Shown in pieces: positions 125 through 16,012 of a stretch of 18,618 nt of DNA. The stretch comes from Armatimonadota bacterium (GTDB lineage: Bacteria > Armatimonadota > UBA5829 > DTLH01), in assembly GCA_039680575.1 (NCBI GenBank), contig JBDKSP010000028.1, forward strand, positions 1 to 18,618. The letters are read 5' to 3'. The translations under genes were made by a program, and so were the position numbers. The notes under the pieces were generated by a model that was not told where the DNA came from, did no database searches, and saw nothing but the letters and a program-made list of their open reading frames with translations. Each line of letters begins with the position of its first letter. Positions within the stretch are counted from its first letter, which is position 1.

Positions 125-1222
125 CTAAGTAGTTACATTCCTTTTCCACTTGAGTGTCAGAGTGAAGAACACCGCTAATACGATCAGTTTCCACGCCAAC
201 GGGATAAATGGGCCAGCCCGATGCCTTCCGATAGGTTGTGTGACCCCGGGCACCCCAAGTTGCGCGTTGCGCAGTTGGACAATTCCATCCTTGTTCCATC
301 GGGCTGTGTCTGTCGTTACGTGAAGCGTTCCAGTGAAAACCTGAAACGGCTTCCAAAGCGGTGGTGTCTGCGACTCATCGGCTGGGTAAACAGTAATTGC
401 ATTATAGACCGTCGGAGGCGTACCCTGCGCGACGCCATCCCACCACATCTTCGCAACAATCAGCCTTGGAGGTTGTGATGAGTTGCGCCCTACACAATAA
501 CCGGCAACAACCACGCGTTTACCGTTCATCACCCGAAGAGTCTGTGCGACGCCGCCAGACTTGGGGTTCTTCGCTATTGCTATGAGCGGCGTATAGTCAA
601 AGAGTGGGAGCTTCGCTTTCTTTGCTGAACTTACTGGATCTACGTCGGGTATATCATCTCCGACTCTTGTAAGGGAGTCTCCTTCCATCCTATAGATGTA
701 ACCGTCGTTGGGTTTCGGATCAACAAAGAACTTCCCGCTGATCATCACAGGATTAAGCCTCTGGAACTTGACCGGCTCTTTCATCTCCACAAGGATATAC
801 TGATTGAACTGAGGACGAGGACCGTAGCAGCAGGTCTGAGTGCTTCGCAAGAGGCAGAAGTCCTTGATTCTATCGCCAATCTGCAAGGGATACATGAAGC
901 CTACGCAATCGAAAGCGCGACCGTTCAGAGCCTTTATCGGTTTTGGACATGGTGGTCTGGAGTCGACGGCAAAGTCCCATTCTCCGAGTGTGGAAAAGTG
1001 CAGAAATTTCTCGCCATTACTCGCATCAAGAGCTTGCTCATCAATACCGATAGTATTATGGCTGGTATCGCCGTTTTCCGCACGAACACTCAACTGGATA
1101 GCTGATTTACCACCAGCCAGGTTGCGTTGAGTGATGAAACCGTAAATAGAATCCGCTGCGAAGATTGCCAGTATTAGCGGCAGTCCATAAATCAGCAGTT
1201 TCCTGTGTCTTACACTAAGCAT
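125..1222 (-). CDS. DUF3299-like (ZrgD/PA4066-like) membrane-anchored protein with two tandem domains
   Basis: 365 aa. N-terminal and C-terminal hydrophobic helices. Motif LNG..GFMYPL..F.L....CCYG.P..NQYI.V typical of DUF3299, and a second similar domain (MNGKRVVVAGY..WWDGVAQGTPP). SD CAGGAG upstream of the ATG. Confidence 0.75.
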   Translation of the reverse strand: MLSVRHRKLLIYGLPLILAIFAADSIYGFITQRNLAGGKSAIQLSVRAENGDTSHNTIGIDEQALDASNGEKFLHFSTLGEWDFAVDSRPPCPKPIKALNGRAFDCVGFMYPLQIGDRIKDFCLLRSTQTCCYGPRPQFNQYILVEMKEPVKFQRLNPVMISGKFFVDPKPNDGYIYRMEGDSLTRVGDDIPDVDPVSSAKKAKLPLFDYTPLIAIAKNPKSGGVAQTLRVMNGKRVVVAGYCVGRNSSQPPRLIVAKMWWDGVAQGTPPTVYNAITVYPADESQTPPLWKPFQVFTGTLHVTTDTARWNKDGIVQLRNAQLGVPGVTQPIGRHRAGPFIPLAWKLIVLAVFFTLTLKWKRNVTT

Positions 1223-1237
1223 TACAAACTCCTGGAA

Positions 1238-1732
1238 CTAATCGGGATCGTAGCCCTTGGGATATTCGATCCTGAGAGGTGTTTTCTTTCTTTTGAACGT
1301 TATTTGGCCGTCCGCGGTGAACTCGGAAAGACCTTTAAGCCAAGGCGCATTACCCTCAAAGTAAGAGCAATCACCGGCCTTTTCACCTGCAAGATCAAGA
1401 GGGCTGGGGCTCAGAACAAGTGTCTTCATTCCTTCGTTCGTCTTTACTTGAAGCCGGATTGAACTGTCCGGTATACGAACGGACATACCTGTATTATGTC
1501 CCCCGCTGACAAACCAGAGTTGCAGCTTCTCACCACTCAACTTCACCTCCGCATGGCCATTTTCGCAGGTCACTATTGCATTGAGTGTGCCTCCATGCGC
1601 CGATTTGTGTCCGTGTTTGTGTTCTTGCGGCTGTGCTATGTGTGAGTGGCTCGATTTTGCTTGATTGGAACAACCACTGCATATCATACAAGCGAGCAAT
1701 ATCGCGCTCGCGACGGAAATAAATCTAGGCAT
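1238..1732 (-). CDS. His-rich putative metal-binding lipoprotein
   Basis: Start moved to ATG 1732 (MPRFISV..., SD AAAGGA), which gives a signal peptide with lipobox-like CSGC. Followed by HSHIAQPQEHKHGHKSAHGG, CENGHAE and GDCSYF. Confidence 0.75.
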   Translation of the reverse strand: MPRFISVASAILLACMICSGCSNQAKSSHSHIAQPQEHKHGHKSAHGGTLNAIVTCENGHAEVKLSGEKLQLWFVSGGHNTGMSVRIPDSSIRLQVKTNEGMKTLVLSPSPLDLAGEKAGDCSYFEGNAPWLKGLSEFTADGQITFKRKKTPLRIEYPKGYDPD

Positions 1733-1746
1733 AATAAATAATATTC

Positions 1747-1802
1747 CTTTTATCAAAAACTCTCCGAAGAATTTTCGGCTGTATTGCAGCCGAAAATCAA
1801 TA
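1747..1802 (-). repeat. Shortened third copy (C) of the structured intergenic element
   Basis: Minus strand reads TATTGATTTTCGGCTG-CAATA-CAGCCGAAAATTCTTCGGAGAGTTTTTGATAAAAG. It has a perfect 11-bp stem (1771-1781/1787-1797) and aligns with the first stem and junction of copies A and B. Confidence 0.6.
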
Positions 1803-1872
1803 GATGATGCTACCGCGGCAGCGCTTTTAAAAAAAGTGCGACAGATGCACAATATTAAGGTGTGATCCACTA

Positions 1873-2874
1873 TTAGCCGCCGCTGTCGGTAGATTTTGGT
1901 CTTTCAACTTTTGCGTTTTTCATTATCTGTGAGTATATACTCTTGAATTCTTTCTCCACGAAGTATGACTCACAGAATTTTACTATGTCGCTGTCGCTCA
2001 TCGGTTTCCACTTGATGATGTGGTAACCCCAGGAACTCTCGAAGGGCTTGCTGGTCTCGCCGGGCTTTAGCTTAGATATCATCTCATCAAATTCCTGGCC
2101 ATATGACGCCCTATCGATGAAACCAAGCATCCCACCTTTGTGTTTGCTGGTCATATCCTCCGACACCGATTTTGCGACAGCCCCGAACGACTCTCCAGAC
2201 TGCAATCTGTCCCAGGCCGTCTTTGCCTTTTGGCTGATAGATGCCCTAATCTTATCTGGATTTGAGTCAAAACCTGGCTGTTGGAATGTATTGAAGAATA
2301 TCTGGCAGGCATTCACATAGCGGGCGCGGATAAATTTGCTCTGAGCGCCTATTTCCTTGAGCACCTTGGCTTTGTCCTGATGTGACTTACTCCATGATGT
2401 CTGCGCATAGTCTGAAAGGCCGATGTTATTTCTTATCTCCTGGCGAAGCTCATCGCGAGTGTATCCCACTGCAGAAAGATAAGCATCGAGGCTGGGGTAA
2501 GTGCAGCAGGCACATCCCTTGCTTGGAGGGTTCTTTTCAAGCTTCTCTATCTCCTTTTCGACAAGCTCCTCTCGAACACGAACACCATGTTTGGTGAGAA
2601 ATTGCCGAACTGCCATCTGAGATATCATTCGTGATAGCTTGTTTTCCTTGAGATTGTCTAAAGTGTCGCTGAACGAATCACTCGGCAACCCTCGATTGAT
2701 ATCGACCTCATATATTGGTTCACCATTCACCCGAGCAACGACAGTGCTTGCCTCGATACGAGCATTCCGAATGTAGTTGAATGCGTAACCGCCTGCGCCT
2801 AGAACCACTATTACCGCGATAATCAATGTTCTCAACGGTAAAGGTCTCCGGCTGCTCTGCTCTTCGATACTCAT
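1873..2874 (-). CDS. PpiC/parvulin-type peptidyl-prolyl isomerase (PrsA/SurA-like foldase), membrane anchored
   Basis: N-terminal TM helix, VVARVNGEPI SurA/PrsA N-domain motif, and parvulin motifs F..VAK..SED..S...GG.LG and SKPFESSWGYHII. Confidence 0.85.
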   Translation of the reverse strand: MSIEEQSSRRPLPLRTLIIAVIVVLGAGGYAFNYIRNARIEASTVVARVNGEPIYEVDINRGLPSDSFSDTLDNLKENKLSRMISQMAVRQFLTKHGVRVREELVEKEIEKLEKNPPSKGCACCTYPSLDAYLSAVGYTRDELRQEIRNNIGLSDYAQTSWSKSHQDKAKVLKEIGAQSKFIRARYVNACQIFFNTFQQPGFDSNPDKIRASISQKAKTAWDRLQSGESFGAVAKSVSEDMTSKHKGGMLGFIDRASYGQEFDEMISKLKPGETSKPFESSWGYHIIKWKPMSDSDIVKFCESYFVEKEFKSIYSQIMKNAKVERPKSTDSGG

Positions 2875-2880
2875 AATGAC

Positions 2881-4131
2881 TTACTCCATAATACTAAGAT
2901 TTCGCAGGATACTCATGCGATATGCCTGGACCGCGGGAATCAGTCCCGCGAATGCTCCCATCAGGGTGATGATCGGCAGTACCCATACATCTGATGATGA
3001 GATGAAGCTAGAGGAGAACTGCATCCCGGTTTCGACTGCTATATAGCGGCTTCCAAATGCAACCAGTAGATGTCCAAAGGTGATGCCCAGGACTGTTCCA
3101 AAGATACTGAGAAGAACTGCTTCGGATATAATCAGTCCGAATACCGTCCGCCTGTTCGCGCCAAGCATTCGCATCATGGCGAGTTCTCTACGCTGCTCGC
3201 GAAGAGCAGTTATCAGGACAACGAATAAGAACATAATGGCAAGCAGTGTAACCAGTGATCCTACGATAAACATCACCTTGTCCACCCAGCCGATGATGTC
3301 GAGTATCCTTGGAATTACTTCACTTGGCACTACCAATTGAGCTTGAGTAGATTGATCGACCTCATACTTGAGGTTCTGGACACCCGGGTGCATCGCACCG
3401 CCTCTGATGTGACGCAGTTTGATATATGCTCCGCTTATTTCACGCTGCGATGGATCCGTTGCCATTGTCGCCACATTTGCGCCGTGTCCCTCGAGCGTAT
3501 AGAAAGTCTTCAGAGGAATGTAAATAGCGCGGTCGTGAGGTGTTCCGGTCGGAGCGAGTATTCCGACGAAGCTGATACGGTCGTGTGCATGGACGGGGTC
3601 TCCGGAATGTACGCCGCACACGGGATTGAATGTATCACCGAGATGAAGTCCAAGTGCCCGGGCTGCCGTCCAGCCAGCAACCGCTTCATCGCGAGCCCTA
3701 AACATCCGGCCCTGGCCTCCAGCATTAGGATCGAAGGAGAATCGTTTACCGGGCTGGTACTCAAATGAGGTGAAGAAACGGTCATCTATTGCATTAACTC
3801 GAAAGTCTGCATAGGAATGTCCGGTGACAAAAGGAATCGCATCCACTACAAGTGGATCTTTTCGGAATTTCTCGTAATAGGTCCACTTTATCTTACCGGG
3901 CATTTCCTCAAGGTGGTAGAGTGCATTGAGTGCAATCTGCAGCGGTGAACCCTTCGGTCCAAGAATGGCATCTACTCCGACACCTTCAGTCATGAATTGC
4001 CGATGAGATTGCTCTCGGAAAGATACGACGGCGGACAGAAGCCCCACACCAAGCGTGATGCTGATCAGTGCGAGGATTGTCGAGAACCGATGACGCCGTA
4101 TATTGTGAATCAGTATTCGCCAGAAACTCAT
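2881..4131 (-). CDS. ABC transporter permease, FtsX/MacB family (ZrgC/PA4065-like)
   Basis: Start at ATG 4131 (ATGA overlap with the ATPase stop, SD GGAGGT). Motifs DAILGPKGSPLQIALNALYHL and REQRRELAMMRMLGA, 1+3 TM topology, His-containing extracytoplasmic loop VHSGDPVHAHD. Confidence 0.9.
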   Translation of the reverse strand: MSFWRILIHNIRRHRFSTILALISITLGVGLLSAVVSFREQSHRQFMTEGVGVDAILGPKGSPLQIALNALYHLEEMPGKIKWTYYEKFRKDPLVVDAIPFVTGHSYADFRVNAIDDRFFTSFEYQPGKRFSFDPNAGGQGRMFRARDEAVAGWTAARALGLHLGDTFNPVCGVHSGDPVHAHDRISFVGILAPTGTPHDRAIYIPLKTFYTLEGHGANVATMATDPSQREISGAYIKLRHIRGGAMHPGVQNLKYEVDQSTQAQLVVPSEVIPRILDIIGWVDKVMFIVGSLVTLLAIMFLFVVLITALREQRRELAMMRMLGANRRTVFGLIISEAVLLSIFGTVLGITFGHLLVAFGSRYIAVETGMQFSSSFISSSDVWVLPIITLMGAFAGLIPAVQAYRMSILRNLSIME

Positions 4132-4805
4132 TGAGCCACCTCCAATGCACAAGCCCGGTTGATGTCGGAAAAACGCACCCGGTTTTCGAACTGTGCGATA
4201 ATATCCGGCTCATGGCTGACCAGGACCAGCGCGCTGCCCTGAGCTTCACACATAGAGCGAAGCAGACTGACCACTTGGGTTTTGTTGCGAGGGTCAAGAG
4301 AACCCGTAGGTTCATCAGCCAGAATAACTTCCGGCTTCTTCGCAAGCGCCCTCGCAATTGCTACTCGCTGCTGTTCGCCAAGCGACATTTCGGACGGACT
4401 ATGCCTAAGCCTTGAGCCTATACCGACCTGCTCAAGCAGCGATTCCGCGAGCTTACGGTCAGGTTTGACAGAGCAGAAGGTCATTCCCATAAGCACATTG
4501 TCCAGCGCAGTGTAGCCGCTCAAAAGGTTGAAGTTTTGAAACACATAACCTATTCTTCGTGCTCGAAATCGATCTCGCTCGGCTTCGGACATCTGGGAGA
4601 CGACTTCGCCGCAGACTGTTACCTGCCCGCTCGAAGGAAGAAGCACTCCAGCGATCATATGCAGCAGAGTAGATTTTCCCGAACCGGACGGGCCGAAAAT
4701 GGCGATCTGCTCGCCCCTTTCCACACGCCAGTATGGTACATCGACTACTTTCAGGGTCTCGTCCCCGATGGAGTAGTTGAGGCACAAGTCCTTTATTTCT
4801 ATCAT
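4128..4805 (-). CDS. ABC transporter ATP-binding protein, LolD/MacB family (ZrgB-like)
   Basis: Walker A GPSGSGKS, signature MSLGEQQRVAIARAL, Walker B ILADEPTG, H-loop VSH. Start ATG 4805 with SD AAGGAG. Confidence 0.93.
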   Translation of the reverse strand: MIEIKDLCLNYSIGDETLKVVDVPYWRVERGEQIAIFGPSGSGKSTLLHMIAGVLLPSSGQVTVCGEVVSQMSEAERDRFRARRIGYVFQNFNLLSGYTALDNVLMGMTFCSVKPDRKLAESLLEQVGIGSRLRHSPSEMSLGEQQRVAIARALAKKPEVILADEPTGSLDPRNKTQVVSLLRSMCEAQGSALVLVSHEPDIIAQFENRVRFSDINRACALEVAQ

Positions 4806-5029
4806 AGAAACACTCCTTAGCATCGACTGAGATTCGACTCCGACCATAGCCAAAATCCAGTCAATGAATTCATATCCATCATCATTTTATATTCCGATTT
4901 CCTCGATTTGCTTCATCCATGTATATAATCATCTGACTTGGCGTAAGCAAGAGCCGGAAATATACATGAATTCACGCCTGAGTAAGGCGCATTTAGCGTG
5001 CAAAATGCCGATAAGTTCTGGAAAAGTGA

Positions 5030-5374
5030 TTATATGGTGGGAGGAGATCTAGAGTGAGATTTACAGGAGAATACTGTATAGATGATCTGATTAAGCTCTT
5101 GGATAGGACTTTCTAATGCAGAAGTGGGTTGAAAGTGGAATTGAGGAGCGAATGTTGTGATGTTTGACCCGGAAGCCAAGATATCACAAGCTGCGCAATG
5201 ATTTTCCTCGCTATTCTGAGCAGCAATGCATATACCTGTTCCAGTCCCGAGCGACTCGTATTCCCCGCGAAACGGGCCGTGCGTATGCACATTGCTCGCG
5301 ATAAGGAGTAACGAAAATGCTACCAGGCAGATTGCCGCAGCTAGTCTTCTATTGAACCTGGTCATTAGTTTCAC
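5030..5374 (-). CDS. DUF2946-like small exported protein (HxH, CxxC, C-terminal RSPP); candidate regulatory upstream ORF
   Basis: 114 aa with a signal/TM segment, HTH right after it, HCAAC (5186-5200) and C-terminal SRSPPTI. GTG start with SD AGGA. Confidence 0.75.
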   Translation of the reverse strand: MKLMTRFNRRLAAAICLVAFSLLLIASNVHTHGPFRGEYESLGTGTGICIAAQNSEENHCAACDILASGSNITTFAPQFHFQPTSALESPIQELNQIIYTVFSCKSHSRSPPTI

Positions 5375-5382
5375 GTTGTTTC

Positions 5383-5546
5383 CTATTGAGTTTCAGAAGA
5401 TAAAGTAACAGCCTAAAAGTTATATAAACAGTTCTCTGATATAGCTTTATCTGTTGATTTTACACTTATACCTGAAACTCTTCCGGAAGAGTTTTGGCTT
5501 GAGACGTAATGCATATTTGTTCACATCAACTGCCAAAACTCTATAA
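5383..5546 (-). repeat. Structured intergenic element, copy A
   Basis: Its reverse complement aligns over about 165 bp with 6716-6879. Core 5448-5481 matches 6782-6815 at 33/34 positions. Contains several internal inverted repeats. Confidence 0.9.
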
Positions 5547-5859
5547 TATAAATTTTACTCACAGATGAGACTATTGTCAAGTTGCTTCTGTGTGTAATTA
5601 GCATCTATGATTGTGATGCGGTATGGATGTGATCGCAGATTAATTTGATAAGGAGTCAAAGTAGATGCCAAGAGGCCAAGGCCATCGGTACGGCGGAGAG
5701 CGCTCAGCACATGCGCAATGGGCAATCCATATCGATTTGTTGAGCCGGTCACTTGCCATAAGTGCCGGTCGTGATGCAAAATAGATGTGCAAGTATAGAT
5801 GTGCGTGCCTGCCGCATGCATACGTGCTTGATAGTCGTTTTATTTGAAAGGAAGATGAG

Positions 5860-6711
5860 TTGAAACCAATAGCAATAGCGACATGGAGATTCGGAGTAGC
5901 TGCATGCACTGAGACAATGAAGCATCTCCATGCAGGCGCAAATGGAATGGATGCCGTAGAAAGCGGCATAAGGGTTATCGAGGAAGATACCAGCGTCGAA
6001 ACGGTTGGTTACGGCGGAGCGCCGAACTCGGACGGTATAGTTGAACTCGATGCGGCTATGATGTGGGGACCCGGCCGGCGATTGGGCGGCGTTGCATCGC
6101 TGAGAGATATAGGTGAAGCCATCTCTGTCGCAAGACGGGTGTTGGAGAATACGCCGCACTGTCTCCTGGCCGGAGAAGGCGCAAAACAATTCGCCATAGA
6201 AAACGGCTTCAAGCCGAGGAATATGCTCACAGAGACCAGCAAGAAGAAATGGGAGCAGTGGAAAGCGACCGGCTACATGGAGGAGTCCCATGATACGGTC
6301 TGCGTACTTGCCATCGACAGCAACGGCGATGTCTGCGCAGGTACGTCTACAAGCGGTATCAGATACAAGCTCCCGGGTAGAGTAGGGGATACACCTCTCT
6401 GCGGCGGTGGACTGTACTGTGACAATGAAATAGGTGCGGCGGCATCTACAGGACAGGGCGAAGACATTATGCGCTACGCTATGAGTTTCCGCGTGGTAGA
6501 AGAGATGCGCCGCGGCGTAAGCCCGATGGAAGCCTGCCGTTCTACTATGTTATGGGCTGTTACGGACGACCCCCGGATGAGAGACAGAATATCCTGCGTG
6601 ATGGCTCTTAATAAAGCAGGAGAGTGGGGTGCGGCAGCCAGTAAGGTAGGGTTCTCAGTCGCTTACGGCAATTCCGAGGACATCAAGAGAATAATAATCG
6701 ATCCGGTATAG
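5860..6711 (+). CDS. N(4)-(beta-N-acetylglucosaminyl)-L-asparaginase / isoaspartyl peptidase (Ntn hydrolase, type 2 asparaginase)
   Basis: N-terminal ATW, VGYGG.P..G.VELDA, autocleavage site HD|TV, GTSTSG..K.PGRVGD.P and STGQGE. TTG start with SD GAAAGGA. Confidence 0.92.
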   Translation: MKPIAIATWRFGVAACTETMKHLHAGANGMDAVESGIRVIEEDTSVETVGYGGAPNSDGIVELDAAMMWGPGRRLGGVASLRDIGEAISVARRVLENTPHCLLAGEGAKQFAIENGFKPRNMLTETSKKKWEQWKATGYMEESHDTVCVLAIDSNGDVCAGTSTSGIRYKLPGRVGDTPLCGGGLYCDNEIGAAASTGQGEDIMRYAMSFRVVEEMRRGVSPMEACRSTMLWAVTDDPRMRDRISCVMALNKAGEWGAAASKVGFSVAYGNSEDIKRIIIDPV

Positions 6712-6715
6712 CTAT

Positions 6716-6879
6716 TTATAGATTTTCGGCTGTTCAGTCAACAAACAATCGTATATTGGCTGTTGACGAAAATCTTTAGGGAGAGTTTCAGGTATAAGTG
6801 CAAAATCAACAGATACAACAGCATCGGGAACTGGTTATATACCTGTAAGGCTGTTGTATTATCGCCTGAAACTCAGTAG
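6716..6879 (+). repeat. Structured intergenic element, copy B
   Basis: Inverted copy of 5383-5546. It fills nearly the whole asparaginase-comF intergenic region and ends at the comF SD. Confidence 0.9.
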
Positions 6880-6885
6880 AGGCTT

Positions 6886-7629: not shown

Positions 7630-7653
7630 TGGATAAAACCGCCGTACAAGGGA

Positions 7654-7682
7654 GAACCCCCGCCGAATTCGGTCGGGGGTTC
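7654..7682. terminator. GC-rich hairpin between convergent comF and csp
   Basis: GAACCCCCG-CCGAATTCGGT-CGGGGGTTC inverted repeat; the U-tracts are weak. Confidence 0.6.
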
Positions 7683-7701
7683 ATGGGGTAATTATCAACG
7701 A

Positions 7702-7905
7702 TTATTCCACTATGGATACGTTGGCAGCTTGTGGGCCTTTCGGACCTTCGGCTACCTCGAATTCGACTTGTTGCCCCTCAAAAAGACTTTTCCGTCCAGC
7801 GCCGTTTATCGCGGAGTAGTGAACGAATACATCATTCCCATCACTGGTTGAGATGAATCCGTAACCTTTCGCGTCGCTGAACCATTTGACGGTTCCTGTT
7901 AGCAA
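7702..7905 (-). CDS. cspA: Cold-shock protein (CspA family)
   Basis: 67 aa from TTG 7905 (purine-rich AAGGGGGG upstream). GTVKWF, RNP1 KGYGFI, RNP2 VFVHY, GPQAANV. Confidence 0.93.
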
Positions 7906-8036
7906 ACCCCAACCCCCCTTCGGCTGCGTCAAGTTCAAGCAAGGTCGAAGGCGAGGCCAGTACGCCATCCAAATGCGACAGAGATGCTTGCACTCAAACG
8001 GATACAATATGACAGCTTGCTACAACTGCCTCTTGG

Positions 8037-15764: not shown

Positions 15765-15967
15765 CGTTGTCTTGAACTTCCACAGCGTCATGCTAAACCT
15801 CCAAAACGCCATGCAGAACCTCCAAAACGCTATGCTGAACCTCTAAAACGTCATGTCGAACTCCCAAACGTCATGCCGAACTCCCAAACGTCATGCTGAA
15901 CTTGATTCAGCATCCAGTGGACCCTAAACTAAGGAGTTTCAGGGTGACATTAACGTTCAGGGTGACG
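15765..15967. repeat. CGTC-type REP-like element with tandemly reiterated ends
   Basis: Six 20-21 bp units (consensus CGTCATGCTGAACCTCCAAAA, 15765-15888), then CGTCATGCTGAA-CTTGA-TTCAGCAT, a second hairpin ACCCTAAACT-AAGG-AGTTTCAGGGT, and TTCAGGGTGAC twice, ending in GACG. Confidence 0.85.
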
Positions 15968-16012
15968 TAATTGTCGTTAGGTTGGCGTCTTCCACTTACT
16001 TATCGTGGAAGT

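What the first reader, a model, noticed from the sequence alone, without database searches (positions are those of the whole stretch)
5383..6879. Unannotated ~165-nt structured element in two inverted copies with compensatory stem changes, each ending at a ribosome-binding site
Seen: the reverse complement of 5383-5546 (A) aligns with 6716-6879 (B). The core AGAGTTTCAGGTATAAGTGYAAAATCAACAGATA is 33/34 identical. Stem 1 is AGAGTTTTGGC/GCCAAAACTCT in A (5488-5498/5532-5542) and AGATTTTCG/CGAAAATCT in B (6720-6728/6767-6775), with two compensatory pair changes (G-C to T-A and T-A to C-G). Stem 2, GAGTTTCAG/CTGAAACTC, encloses 92-93 bp in both. An inner stem is AGATAAAG/CTTTATCT in A and ATACAACAGC/GCTGTTGTAT in B, so the sequence differs but pairing is kept. 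The best-conserved segment, TATAAGTGYAAAATCAAC, lies between these stems. Both copies are sense to, and end at the SD of, the next gene (DUF2946-like ORF and comF). Inference: a cis-regulatory RNA/ncRNA family or a hairpin-based non-autonomous mobile element. I do not recognise it as a known riboswitch.
Basis: partly seen in the sequence, partly recalled or inferred. Interest (0 to 1): 0.85.

Follow-up and report, generated by a model that had tools for sequence, protein, structure and literature searches.

The report
TA-inserting mini-transposon with IS630 partner
The two look-alike hairpin stretches are copies of a gene-less jumping DNA element present over a hundred times in this bacterium's genome, likely moved by an IS630-type transposase; this is a known kind of genome parasite in a new host, not a riboswitch.

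Summary
The two copies are real (75% identical over 166 nt, E 3e-22) but are not a cis-regulatory RNA. They are 158-bp members of a dispersed repeat family: 224 profile hits and 112 closed TA-to-TA elements in the genome (1 in shuffled DNA), about 36 of them a young subfamily. Copy B is missing at the orthologous site of the sister species, whose empty site already holds comF's ribosome-binding site. Empty sites mostly keep one dinucleotide where filled sites have two TAs. Copies point at the next gene 14 times of 28. Each end reads TA-NN-GA(G/T)TTTYRG with a variable NN; the ends of one IS630 clade read the same way, and this genome holds a multi-copy, strain-polymorphic IS630 of that clade. 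Verdict: a bacterial TA-targeting MITE, like pneumococcal RUP with IS630-Spn1. Unusual points: four end-motifs per element with a TA-less inner junction, swappable halves, two sites occupied in opposite orientation in two species, and a 66-bp form nested in REP doublets. The resident IS630 is not proven to be the mover (its flanks differ). The scan holds no look-alike of this sequence; it noted the same kind of element in other genomes.

The parts
5386..5543 (-). Copy A, 158-bp four-arm doublet MITE; mosaic of an old-type hairpin 1 and a young-type hairpin 2
   Evidence: hairpin 1 is 55/55 identical to a free 61-bp unit on contig C87, hairpin 2 is 95.7% identical over 115 nt to young copies
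5544..5545 (.). TA at the left end of A (inferred target duplication)
   Evidence: empty site of A not found in G001, so inferred from the family
5384..5385 (.). TA at the right end of A (inferred target duplication); followed on the minus strand by GGAAACAAC and the GTG start at 5374
5489..5541 (-). A hairpin 1: arms 5532-5541 and 5489-5498
5481..5488 (.). A inner junction TTCCGGAA: two end motifs abut without a TA
5388..5480 (-). A hairpin 2: arms 5471-5480 and 5388-5396
6719..6876 (+). Copy B, 158-bp four-arm doublet MITE between the asparaginase stop and comF; absent in G001
   Evidence: about 85% identical to the young subfamily in both halves
6717..6718 (.). TA at the left end of B
6877..6878 (.). 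TA at the right end of B
6721..6774 (+). B hairpin 1: arms 6721-6730 and 6765-6774
6775..6782 (.). B inner junction TTTAGGGA (decayed TTCCGGGA type)
6783..6874 (+). B hairpin 2: arms 6783-6792 and 6865-6874
6878..6882 (+). Native Shine-Dalgarno AGAGG of comF (start 6886); not part of the element
   Evidence: same AGAGG in the empty site of G001
5552..5580 (-). Sigma-70-like promoter match (11 of 12) just outside A; would make A the 5' leader of the 114-aa ORF and ABC-transporter genes
   Evidence: consensus match only (4 found, 2.8 expected in shuffles)
5520..5547 (+). Hybrid outward promoter-like match (11 of 12): -35 inside hairpin 1 of A, -10 made of the element's end, the TA and the flank
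   Evidence: consensus match only
1750..1802 (-). Third, decayed short doublet of the same family
   Evidence: profile hit C28:1741-1815; sequence

Best explanation
Both copies belong to a genome-wide family of gene-less elements that sit between two TA dinucleotides and differ in position between sister species, and they are likely cut out and pasted into new TA sites by an IS630-family transposase supplied in trans. Shown: copy number, limits, TA flanks, palindromic target (W-N-Y-TA-R-N-W), presence/absence between G000 and G001, similarity of the ends to the ends of one IS630 clade, presence of a multi-copy IS630 of that clade in this genome. Inferred: the transposase binds the outer GA(G/T)TTTYRG arms; it would cut at the 3' ends and two bases inside the 5' ends as shown for ISY100 (PMC2170065), which would explain why the two bases inside each TA are free to vary; host repair duplicates the TA. 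The 158-bp form has four arms; the inner two abut without TA and would not be cut, so the doublet would move as one piece. Effects on neighbouring genes (A as a 5' leader, B inside the asparaginase-comF message) are possible but untested and secondary.
For: 224 hits, 39 near full length; 112 closed TA-to-TA elements versus 1 in shuffled DNA. Young subfamily: 38 left and 34 right ends, TA at 36/38 and 33/34, pyrimidine before it 37/38, purine after it 34/34; median identity 96.9% among 17 closed copies. B absent in G001. Of 22 elements mapped on both sides, 10 empty sites keep exactly 2 bases, 5 keep -1 to 3, 7 are shared or rearranged; three exact TA cases (C61, C89, L083). Of 74 mapped hits 62 have no element in G001. 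IS630 clade (NF033545, PF13358, PF13592 matches): in 28 loci with both ends found without using the MITE motif, 48 of 56 ends read TA-NN-GA with 8 kinds of NN; the closest score 11-16 bits on the MITE-end matrix (99.9th percentile of 5,035 TA-anchored controls 13.5; MITE ends 6-24), other IS630 clades -17 to -25. G000 holds 6 left and 3 right ends of such an IS at contig breaks; its right end scores 13.8, reached by 46 of 280,507 other TA sites; its N-terminus is 12/22 identical to the G005 element. It is one 1,109-nt contig at about 11 times the flank depth in runs X1 and X2, absent at the C47 site in X2, and joined end-to-end through one TA in X3.
Against: No element with a transposase between exact MITE ends was found (G000 and 1.56 of about 3.1 Mb of G001). 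The resident IS630 matches only at clade level: left end -1.4 bits, at best 15 of 26 letters; right end at best 18 of 26. Its flanks have a pyrimidine before TA in 4 of 9 ends, against 145 of 162 for the MITE, so another clade member may be the real mover. No IS of this clade was found in the G001, G003 or G004 assemblies, which carry the MITE (multi-copy IS are often unassembled). Only 4 of 10 two-base empty sites still read TA; 8 of 20 bases differ versus 38 of 200 in the flanks (p 0.04), and B's own empty site has one extra T. All 34 empty REP loops read AA where 38 filled ones have TA on both sides.
Confidence: 0.85

Rival explanations
1. A cis-regulatory RNA (riboswitch or leader) that sequesters the ribosome-binding site of the next gene.
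For: Both window copies fold well and end at an SD; A lies right behind a promoter-like site; arms covary (CAG/CTG, CGA/TCG, TGG/CCA); the inner helix in register 108 is 82% paired against 18-69% for slid registers.
Against: 14 of 28 doublets sense to the next gene; in co-directional gaps 4 sense versus 13 antisense (p 0.049; all hits 35 versus 60, p 0.013; crude ORF calls); 3 of 39 end at SD plus start; B absent from the sister species with the operon intact; G-U equals A-C in the inner helix; neighbours have no common function; no Rfam match; confined to a few genomes of one order.
Confidence: 0.04
2. A REP/REPIN- or TIRtron-like element moved as single-stranded DNA by a HUH (RAYT/IS200-type) transposase that reads the hairpins.
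For: Two hairpins per element; two Y1 transposase genes in G000; the family is entangled with CGTC-type REP doublets in G000 and encloses such REP clusters in G009; TIR-flanked tyrosine transposases exist (PMC3733652, passages).
Against: Neither Y1 gene is flanked by this family; the target is palindromic on both sides, whereas IS200/IS605 targets are one-sided (recalled); the ends match IS630 ends; loop length varies from 4 to 75 nt without loss of spread.
Confidence: 0.06
3. The arms are sites for a site-specific recombinase that crosses over at the TA, so that the element integrates, flips in place and can overwrite a non-TA target.
For: Two orthologous sites hold an element at the same TA in opposite orientation in G000 and G001 (C87/C53 with L067; C93 with L103); 6 of 10 empty sites are not TA; REP loops read AA when empty.
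Against: Young copies have TA on both sides almost always, which mismatch-tolerant crossover would not give; no recombinase gene linked; IS630 ends explain the anatomy; re-insertion, hot spots or gene conversion can give the inversions; mutation since divergence can give the non-TA sites.
Confidence: 0.05

Closest known systems
RUP (repeat unit of pneumococcus) with IS630-Spn1 (PMC2229807, parts 1-2 of the text read; PMC3049150, passages)
   Same: Under 200 bp, AT-rich, non-coding, about a hundred intergenic copies, TA at both ends, inverted ends resembling those of a resident IS630, mobilisation in trans proposed but not shown.
   Different: No sequence comparison with RUP was run; different phylum. 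RUP is one 107-bp hairpin; this family is modular with four arms and a TA-less inner junction, and is depleted rather than enriched between convergent genes (1 of 28).
Correia/NEMIS and ERIC/IRU elements (PMC2229807)
   Same: TA-flanked, hairpin-forming, long and short forms, possible outward promoters and effects on co-transcribed messages.
   Different: One pair of terminal repeats; no IS630 partner named in that review; regulatory effects are shown for them, untested here.
CIR elements of Caulobacter and Brucella (PMC2229807)
   Same: Two hairpin arms joined by a linker, TA termini, intergenic.
   Different: CIRs lack terminal inverted repeats and carry GANTC sites; here each hairpin arm is an IS630-type end.
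ISY100 / IS630-Tc1-mariner transposition (PMC2170065, abstract and passages)
   Same: TA target duplicated; cut two bases inside the 5' ends, matching the variable NN seen here.
   Different: ISY100 is autonomous; the chemistry is borrowed as a model and was not tested on this clade.

Membership tests
Bacterial TA-flanked MITE (features from PMC2229807) | Small, non-coding | tested here: met
   158 bp; closed forms about 60, 95-100 and 160 bp; longest stop-free stretch 35 and 53 codons
Bacterial TA-flanked MITE (features from PMC2229807) | Terminal inverted repeats | tested here: met
   GA(G/T)TTTYRG arms at both ends; outer 10-bp arm 97% paired in 17 non-redundant copies versus 7-57% slid
Bacterial TA-flanked MITE (features from PMC2229807) | TA at both termini | tested here: met
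   36/38 and 33/34 young ends found by internal motifs
Bacterial TA-flanked MITE (features from PMC2229807) | Target-site duplication shown by empty sites | tested here: met
   10 of 15 empty sites keep exactly two bases, 4 of those 10 read TA; length fits, sequence only partly
Bacterial TA-flanked MITE (features from PMC2229807) | Many dispersed, mostly intergenic, AT-rich copies | tested here: met
   224 hits, 4 inside a called ORF; G+C 33-39% against 50% for the genome
IS630-dependent MITE (RUP-like) | Ends resemble those of an IS630 element | tested here: met
   clade-level match
IS630-dependent MITE (RUP-like) | A cognate transposase with the same ends and target in the genome | tested here: inconclusive
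   multi-copy IS630 of the clade present but ends only partly alike and flank preference different
IS630-dependent MITE (RUP-like) | Transposase binds, cuts and moves the element | not testable with these tools
   needs biochemistry
Cis-regulatory RNA / riboswitch | Sense placement 5' of functionally related genes | tested here: not met
   14 of 28; 4 sense versus 13 antisense
Cis-regulatory RNA / riboswitch | Conserved at orthologous genes across species | tested here: not met
   B absent in G001; 62 of 74 mapped hits absent
Cis-regulatory RNA / riboswitch | Strand-specific covariation outside the terminal arms | tested here: not met
   alifold consensus keeps only the outer stem firmly; G-U 21, A-C 21 in the inner helix
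Cis-regulatory RNA / riboswitch | Transcribed; responds to a ligand | not testable with these tools
   no RNA holder listed
REP/REPIN (GTAG or CGTC families, PMC3733652) | GTAG or CGTC tag at the palindrome; flanks a RAYT gene | tested here: not met
   ends read TA-NN-GA; neither Y1 gene flanked by it

The most novel reading that the evidence does not exclude
A four-ended MITE built from a head-to-tail junction of IS630 ends whose inner TA was lost: the doublet jumps as one piece, swaps or drops halves by recombination between its repeated arms, is flipped or replaced in place, and rides inside REP doublets; a live multi-copy IS630 in the same genome would let this be tested directly, including whether the element can write TA at a non-TA target.
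Probability: 0.3. Interest if true: 0.5.

Novelty: new member of a known kind. Interest (0 to 1): 0.3.

Why it matters
It removes a riboswitch candidate and shows the trap: two copies of a mobile repeat in one window, with covarying terminal arms and chance placement at ribosome-binding sites, look like a regulatory RNA. It adds a MITE family in an uncultured Armatimonadota lineage (about 20 kb of the genome, 29 of 244 contig ends break in the young form) and links it to a defined IS630 clade with a variable terminal dinucleotide. Mobilisation of bacterial TA-MITEs by IS630 transposases is described as a hypothesis in the two papers read (PMC2229807, 2007; PMC3049150, 2011); this pair offers one more substrate for that test.

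Tried and rejected
Rfam: nothing at either copy in the window or in 6 other loci. Search for a transposase between exact MITE ends in G000 and half of G001: none. Y1/RAYT genes: two in G000, other flanking repeats. Other IS630 clades in G000 and G005: ends unlike the MITE. G014's motif excess (41 versus 17) is a different AT-rich motif in the 7 loci read and was dropped. Empty site of A: the upstream operon was not found in G001 and has no cover in X2-X4, so A's insertion is untested. Expression: no RNA holder listed; RNA run X5 laid only on the IS end, nothing laid. The 'hp2 part 1.0' figures come from a slicing error and were not used. One search's hit in G000 is partly circular (the fragment is in the alignment); searches are the independent ones. 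Literature: Armatimonadota + MITE gave 2 unrelated papers, Armatimonadetes + insertion sequence + repeat elements none, IS630 + MITE + composite + tandem 2 papers, listings only; supplements were not read. A longer target duplication was rejected because NN differs between the two ends of single copies.

Full report
1. Observation. Rfam has nothing at either. Exact limits: A 5386-5543 (minus strand) and B 6719-6876, each 158 bp between two TAs.

2. It is a genome-wide repeat. An iterated profile gave 224 hits at E 0.01 in the 2.97-Mb genome, 39 near full length, covering 19.8 kb. A motif search found 112 closed TA-to-TA elements against 1 in shuffled DNA. A young 163-bp form (TA to TA) has 38 left and 34 right ends and 96.9% median identity among 17 closed copies; its copies in the sister species G001 are 92.5-99.4% identical to their best G000 match, while neighbouring genes are 84-87% identical. 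Twenty-nine contig ends break inside it. The end motif is enriched in G000 (278 versus 6 control), G001 (104 versus 5), G003 (17 versus 3) and G009 (30 versus 10) among 53 genomes of the class; among 251 genomes drawn from the phylum only G000 and G001 stand out. The exact inner junction occurs in 14 stretches of the 185,579-genome collection, all in one Armatimonadota assembly (the own genome may be left out). The phylum label for G000 comes from earlier notes and fits.

3. Anatomy. Every end reads TA-NN-GA(G/T)TTTYRG; NN varies. The 158-bp form has four such arms: hairpin 1, an 8-9-bp junction of type TT-CCGG-AA, hairpin 2. Each hairpin also occurs alone between TAs (about 60 and 100 bp), and loops range from 4 to about 75 nt. 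A is a mosaic: hairpin 1 is 55/55 identical to a free unit on C87, hairpin 2 is 95.7% identical to the young form; B is about 85% identical to the young form in both halves. At one shared site G000 has a doublet and G001 only hairpin 1 (C23), so halves are gained or lost in place; the direction is not resolved. G003 has a doublet with a 6-bp junction, and in G009 the same ends enclose clusters of REP-like repeats.

4. It moves. In G001 the asparaginase-comF junction lacks B and already has the AGAGG ribosome-binding site; the empty site has one T more than a clean TA duplication predicts. With 1.56 Mb of G001 (about half), 22 elements mapped on both sides: 10 empty sites keep exactly two bases, 5 keep -1 to 3, 7 are shared or rearranged (copies inside REPs left out, one shared site counted in both directions). 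Three sites are exact TA duplications. Against a tidy picture: only 4 of the 10 read TA (8 of 20 bases changed versus 38 of 200 in flanks, p 0.04). The target is palindromic: pyrimidine before TA in 37 of 38 left ends, purine after it in 34 of 34 right ends, A/T three bases out. Of 74 hits mapped on one side, 62 have no element in G001, 9 rows (8 sites) share one in the same orientation and 3 rows (2 sites) in the opposite orientation at the same TA.

5. Not a cis-regulatory family. With crude ORF calls, 28 of 39 near-full copies could be classed: 14 are sense to the next gene; in co-directional gaps 4 are sense and 13 antisense; 1 lies between convergent genes. Three of 39 end at an SD plus start, two being A and B (four rows are cut by contig ends). 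In 17 non-redundant hairpin-2 units the outer arm is 97% paired; the inner helix is 82% paired in its best register (69% three columns away), A and B use different registers, and G-U and A-C mismatches are equal (21 and 21), so no strand is favoured. Single copies may still matter: a promoter-like site just outside A would make it the leader of the ABC-transporter genes, and A's left end forms an outward promoter-like site (consensus matches only).

6. The likely mover. An IS630 in G005 (L112; NF033545, PF13592, PF13358) has ends like the MITE's. Its relatives from 401 genomes and from metagenomes gave 28 loci with both ends, found without the MITE motif: 48 of 56 ends read TA-NN-GA with variable NN, and the closest score 11-16 bits on the MITE matrix, other IS630 clades -17 to -25. 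A profile built without G000 sequence found this clade in G000 at contig breaks (E 0.0037): 3 right ends and 6 left ends, one inserted at the TA of a MITE. In run X1 (possibly the source) and in X2 it is one 1,109-nt contig at about 11 times the flank depth (depth is not strictly copy number); X2 lacks it at the C47 site; in X3 its two ends are joined through a single TA, the same geometry as the MITE's inner junction apart from the TA. ISY100 cuts two bases inside its 5' ends and duplicates TA (PMC2170065, abstract and passages), which would explain the free NN; this step is inferred. Caveats: the resident IS matches at clade level only (right end 13.8 bits, left -1.4), its flanks have a pyrimidine before TA in 4 of 9 ends versus 145 of 162, and no clade member was found in the G001, G003 or G004 assemblies.

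7. Nesting. A 66-bp doublet sits in the loop of a CGTC-type REP doublet (type named from PMC3733652, passages): 38 filled and 34 empty in G000, 9 and 21 in half of G001; all empty loops read AA. One insertion into a TA variant followed by amplification with the REP is the simplest reading; it is not shown.

8. Comparison and verdict. It meets the features of bacterial TA-flanked MITEs listed in PMC2229807 (two of three parts read) and parallels RUP with IS630-Spn1 (also PMC3049150, passages); CIR elements share the two-arm shape. My searches found no description of this family, and the scan holds no look-alike sequence, though it noted this kind of element in other genomes. New member of a known kind; interest 0.3.

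Noticed in passing
window 1750-1802 (-): Decayed short doublet of the same family inside the long ORF 1238-1870, just before an internal ATG (MPRFIS...), which suggests that the true start of this His-rich protein is that ATG.
   Followed up: partly
window 15890-15990: CGTC-type REP doublet with a remnant of the mini element's right end, after the Wzz-like gene.
   Followed up: partly
window 125-5374 (-): CxxC-bearing 114-aa ORF, ABC ATPase, FtsX-type permease, PPIase, His-rich protein and DUF3299 protein: looks like a metal-handling operon; not found in G001, where homology with the window starts at 5750.
   Followed up: partly
window 7651-8003 (-): cspA thermoregulator match below the gathering score (34.6 bits, E 8.7e-6), over a cold-shock gene.
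   Followed up: no
G000 contig ends C13, C18, C24, C48, C54, C76 (left), C47, C74, C101 (right); L222: Multi-copy IS630, 1,109 nt in X1 and X2, strain-polymorphic, with an end-to-end junction through one TA in X3 (circle or tandem); the C74 copy is interrupted by an IS5-like element.
   Followed up: yes
G000 C87:2-128 and C53:15447-15572 versus L067:3310-3476; C93:508-606 versus L103:12492-12657: Same TA occupied in both species with the element in opposite orientation; in the second case by a different subfamily.
   Followed up: partly
L134, L142, L154 (G009): The same terminal repeats enclose clusters of REP-like GTCATTCCC repeats, 155-298 bp: cargo capture by the MITE ends.
   Followed up: partly
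L022:1330-2000; L023: Y1 transposase flanked by GTAG-type REPs (REPtron-like; 15 contig ends break in this repeat) and a second Y1 gene flanked by other palindromes.
   Followed up: partly
G000 contig ends: Many other collapsed mobile elements by their ends: ISAs1-like, IS3-like, IS5-like, two further IS630 types and a group II intron (labels recalled, not searched).
   Followed up: no
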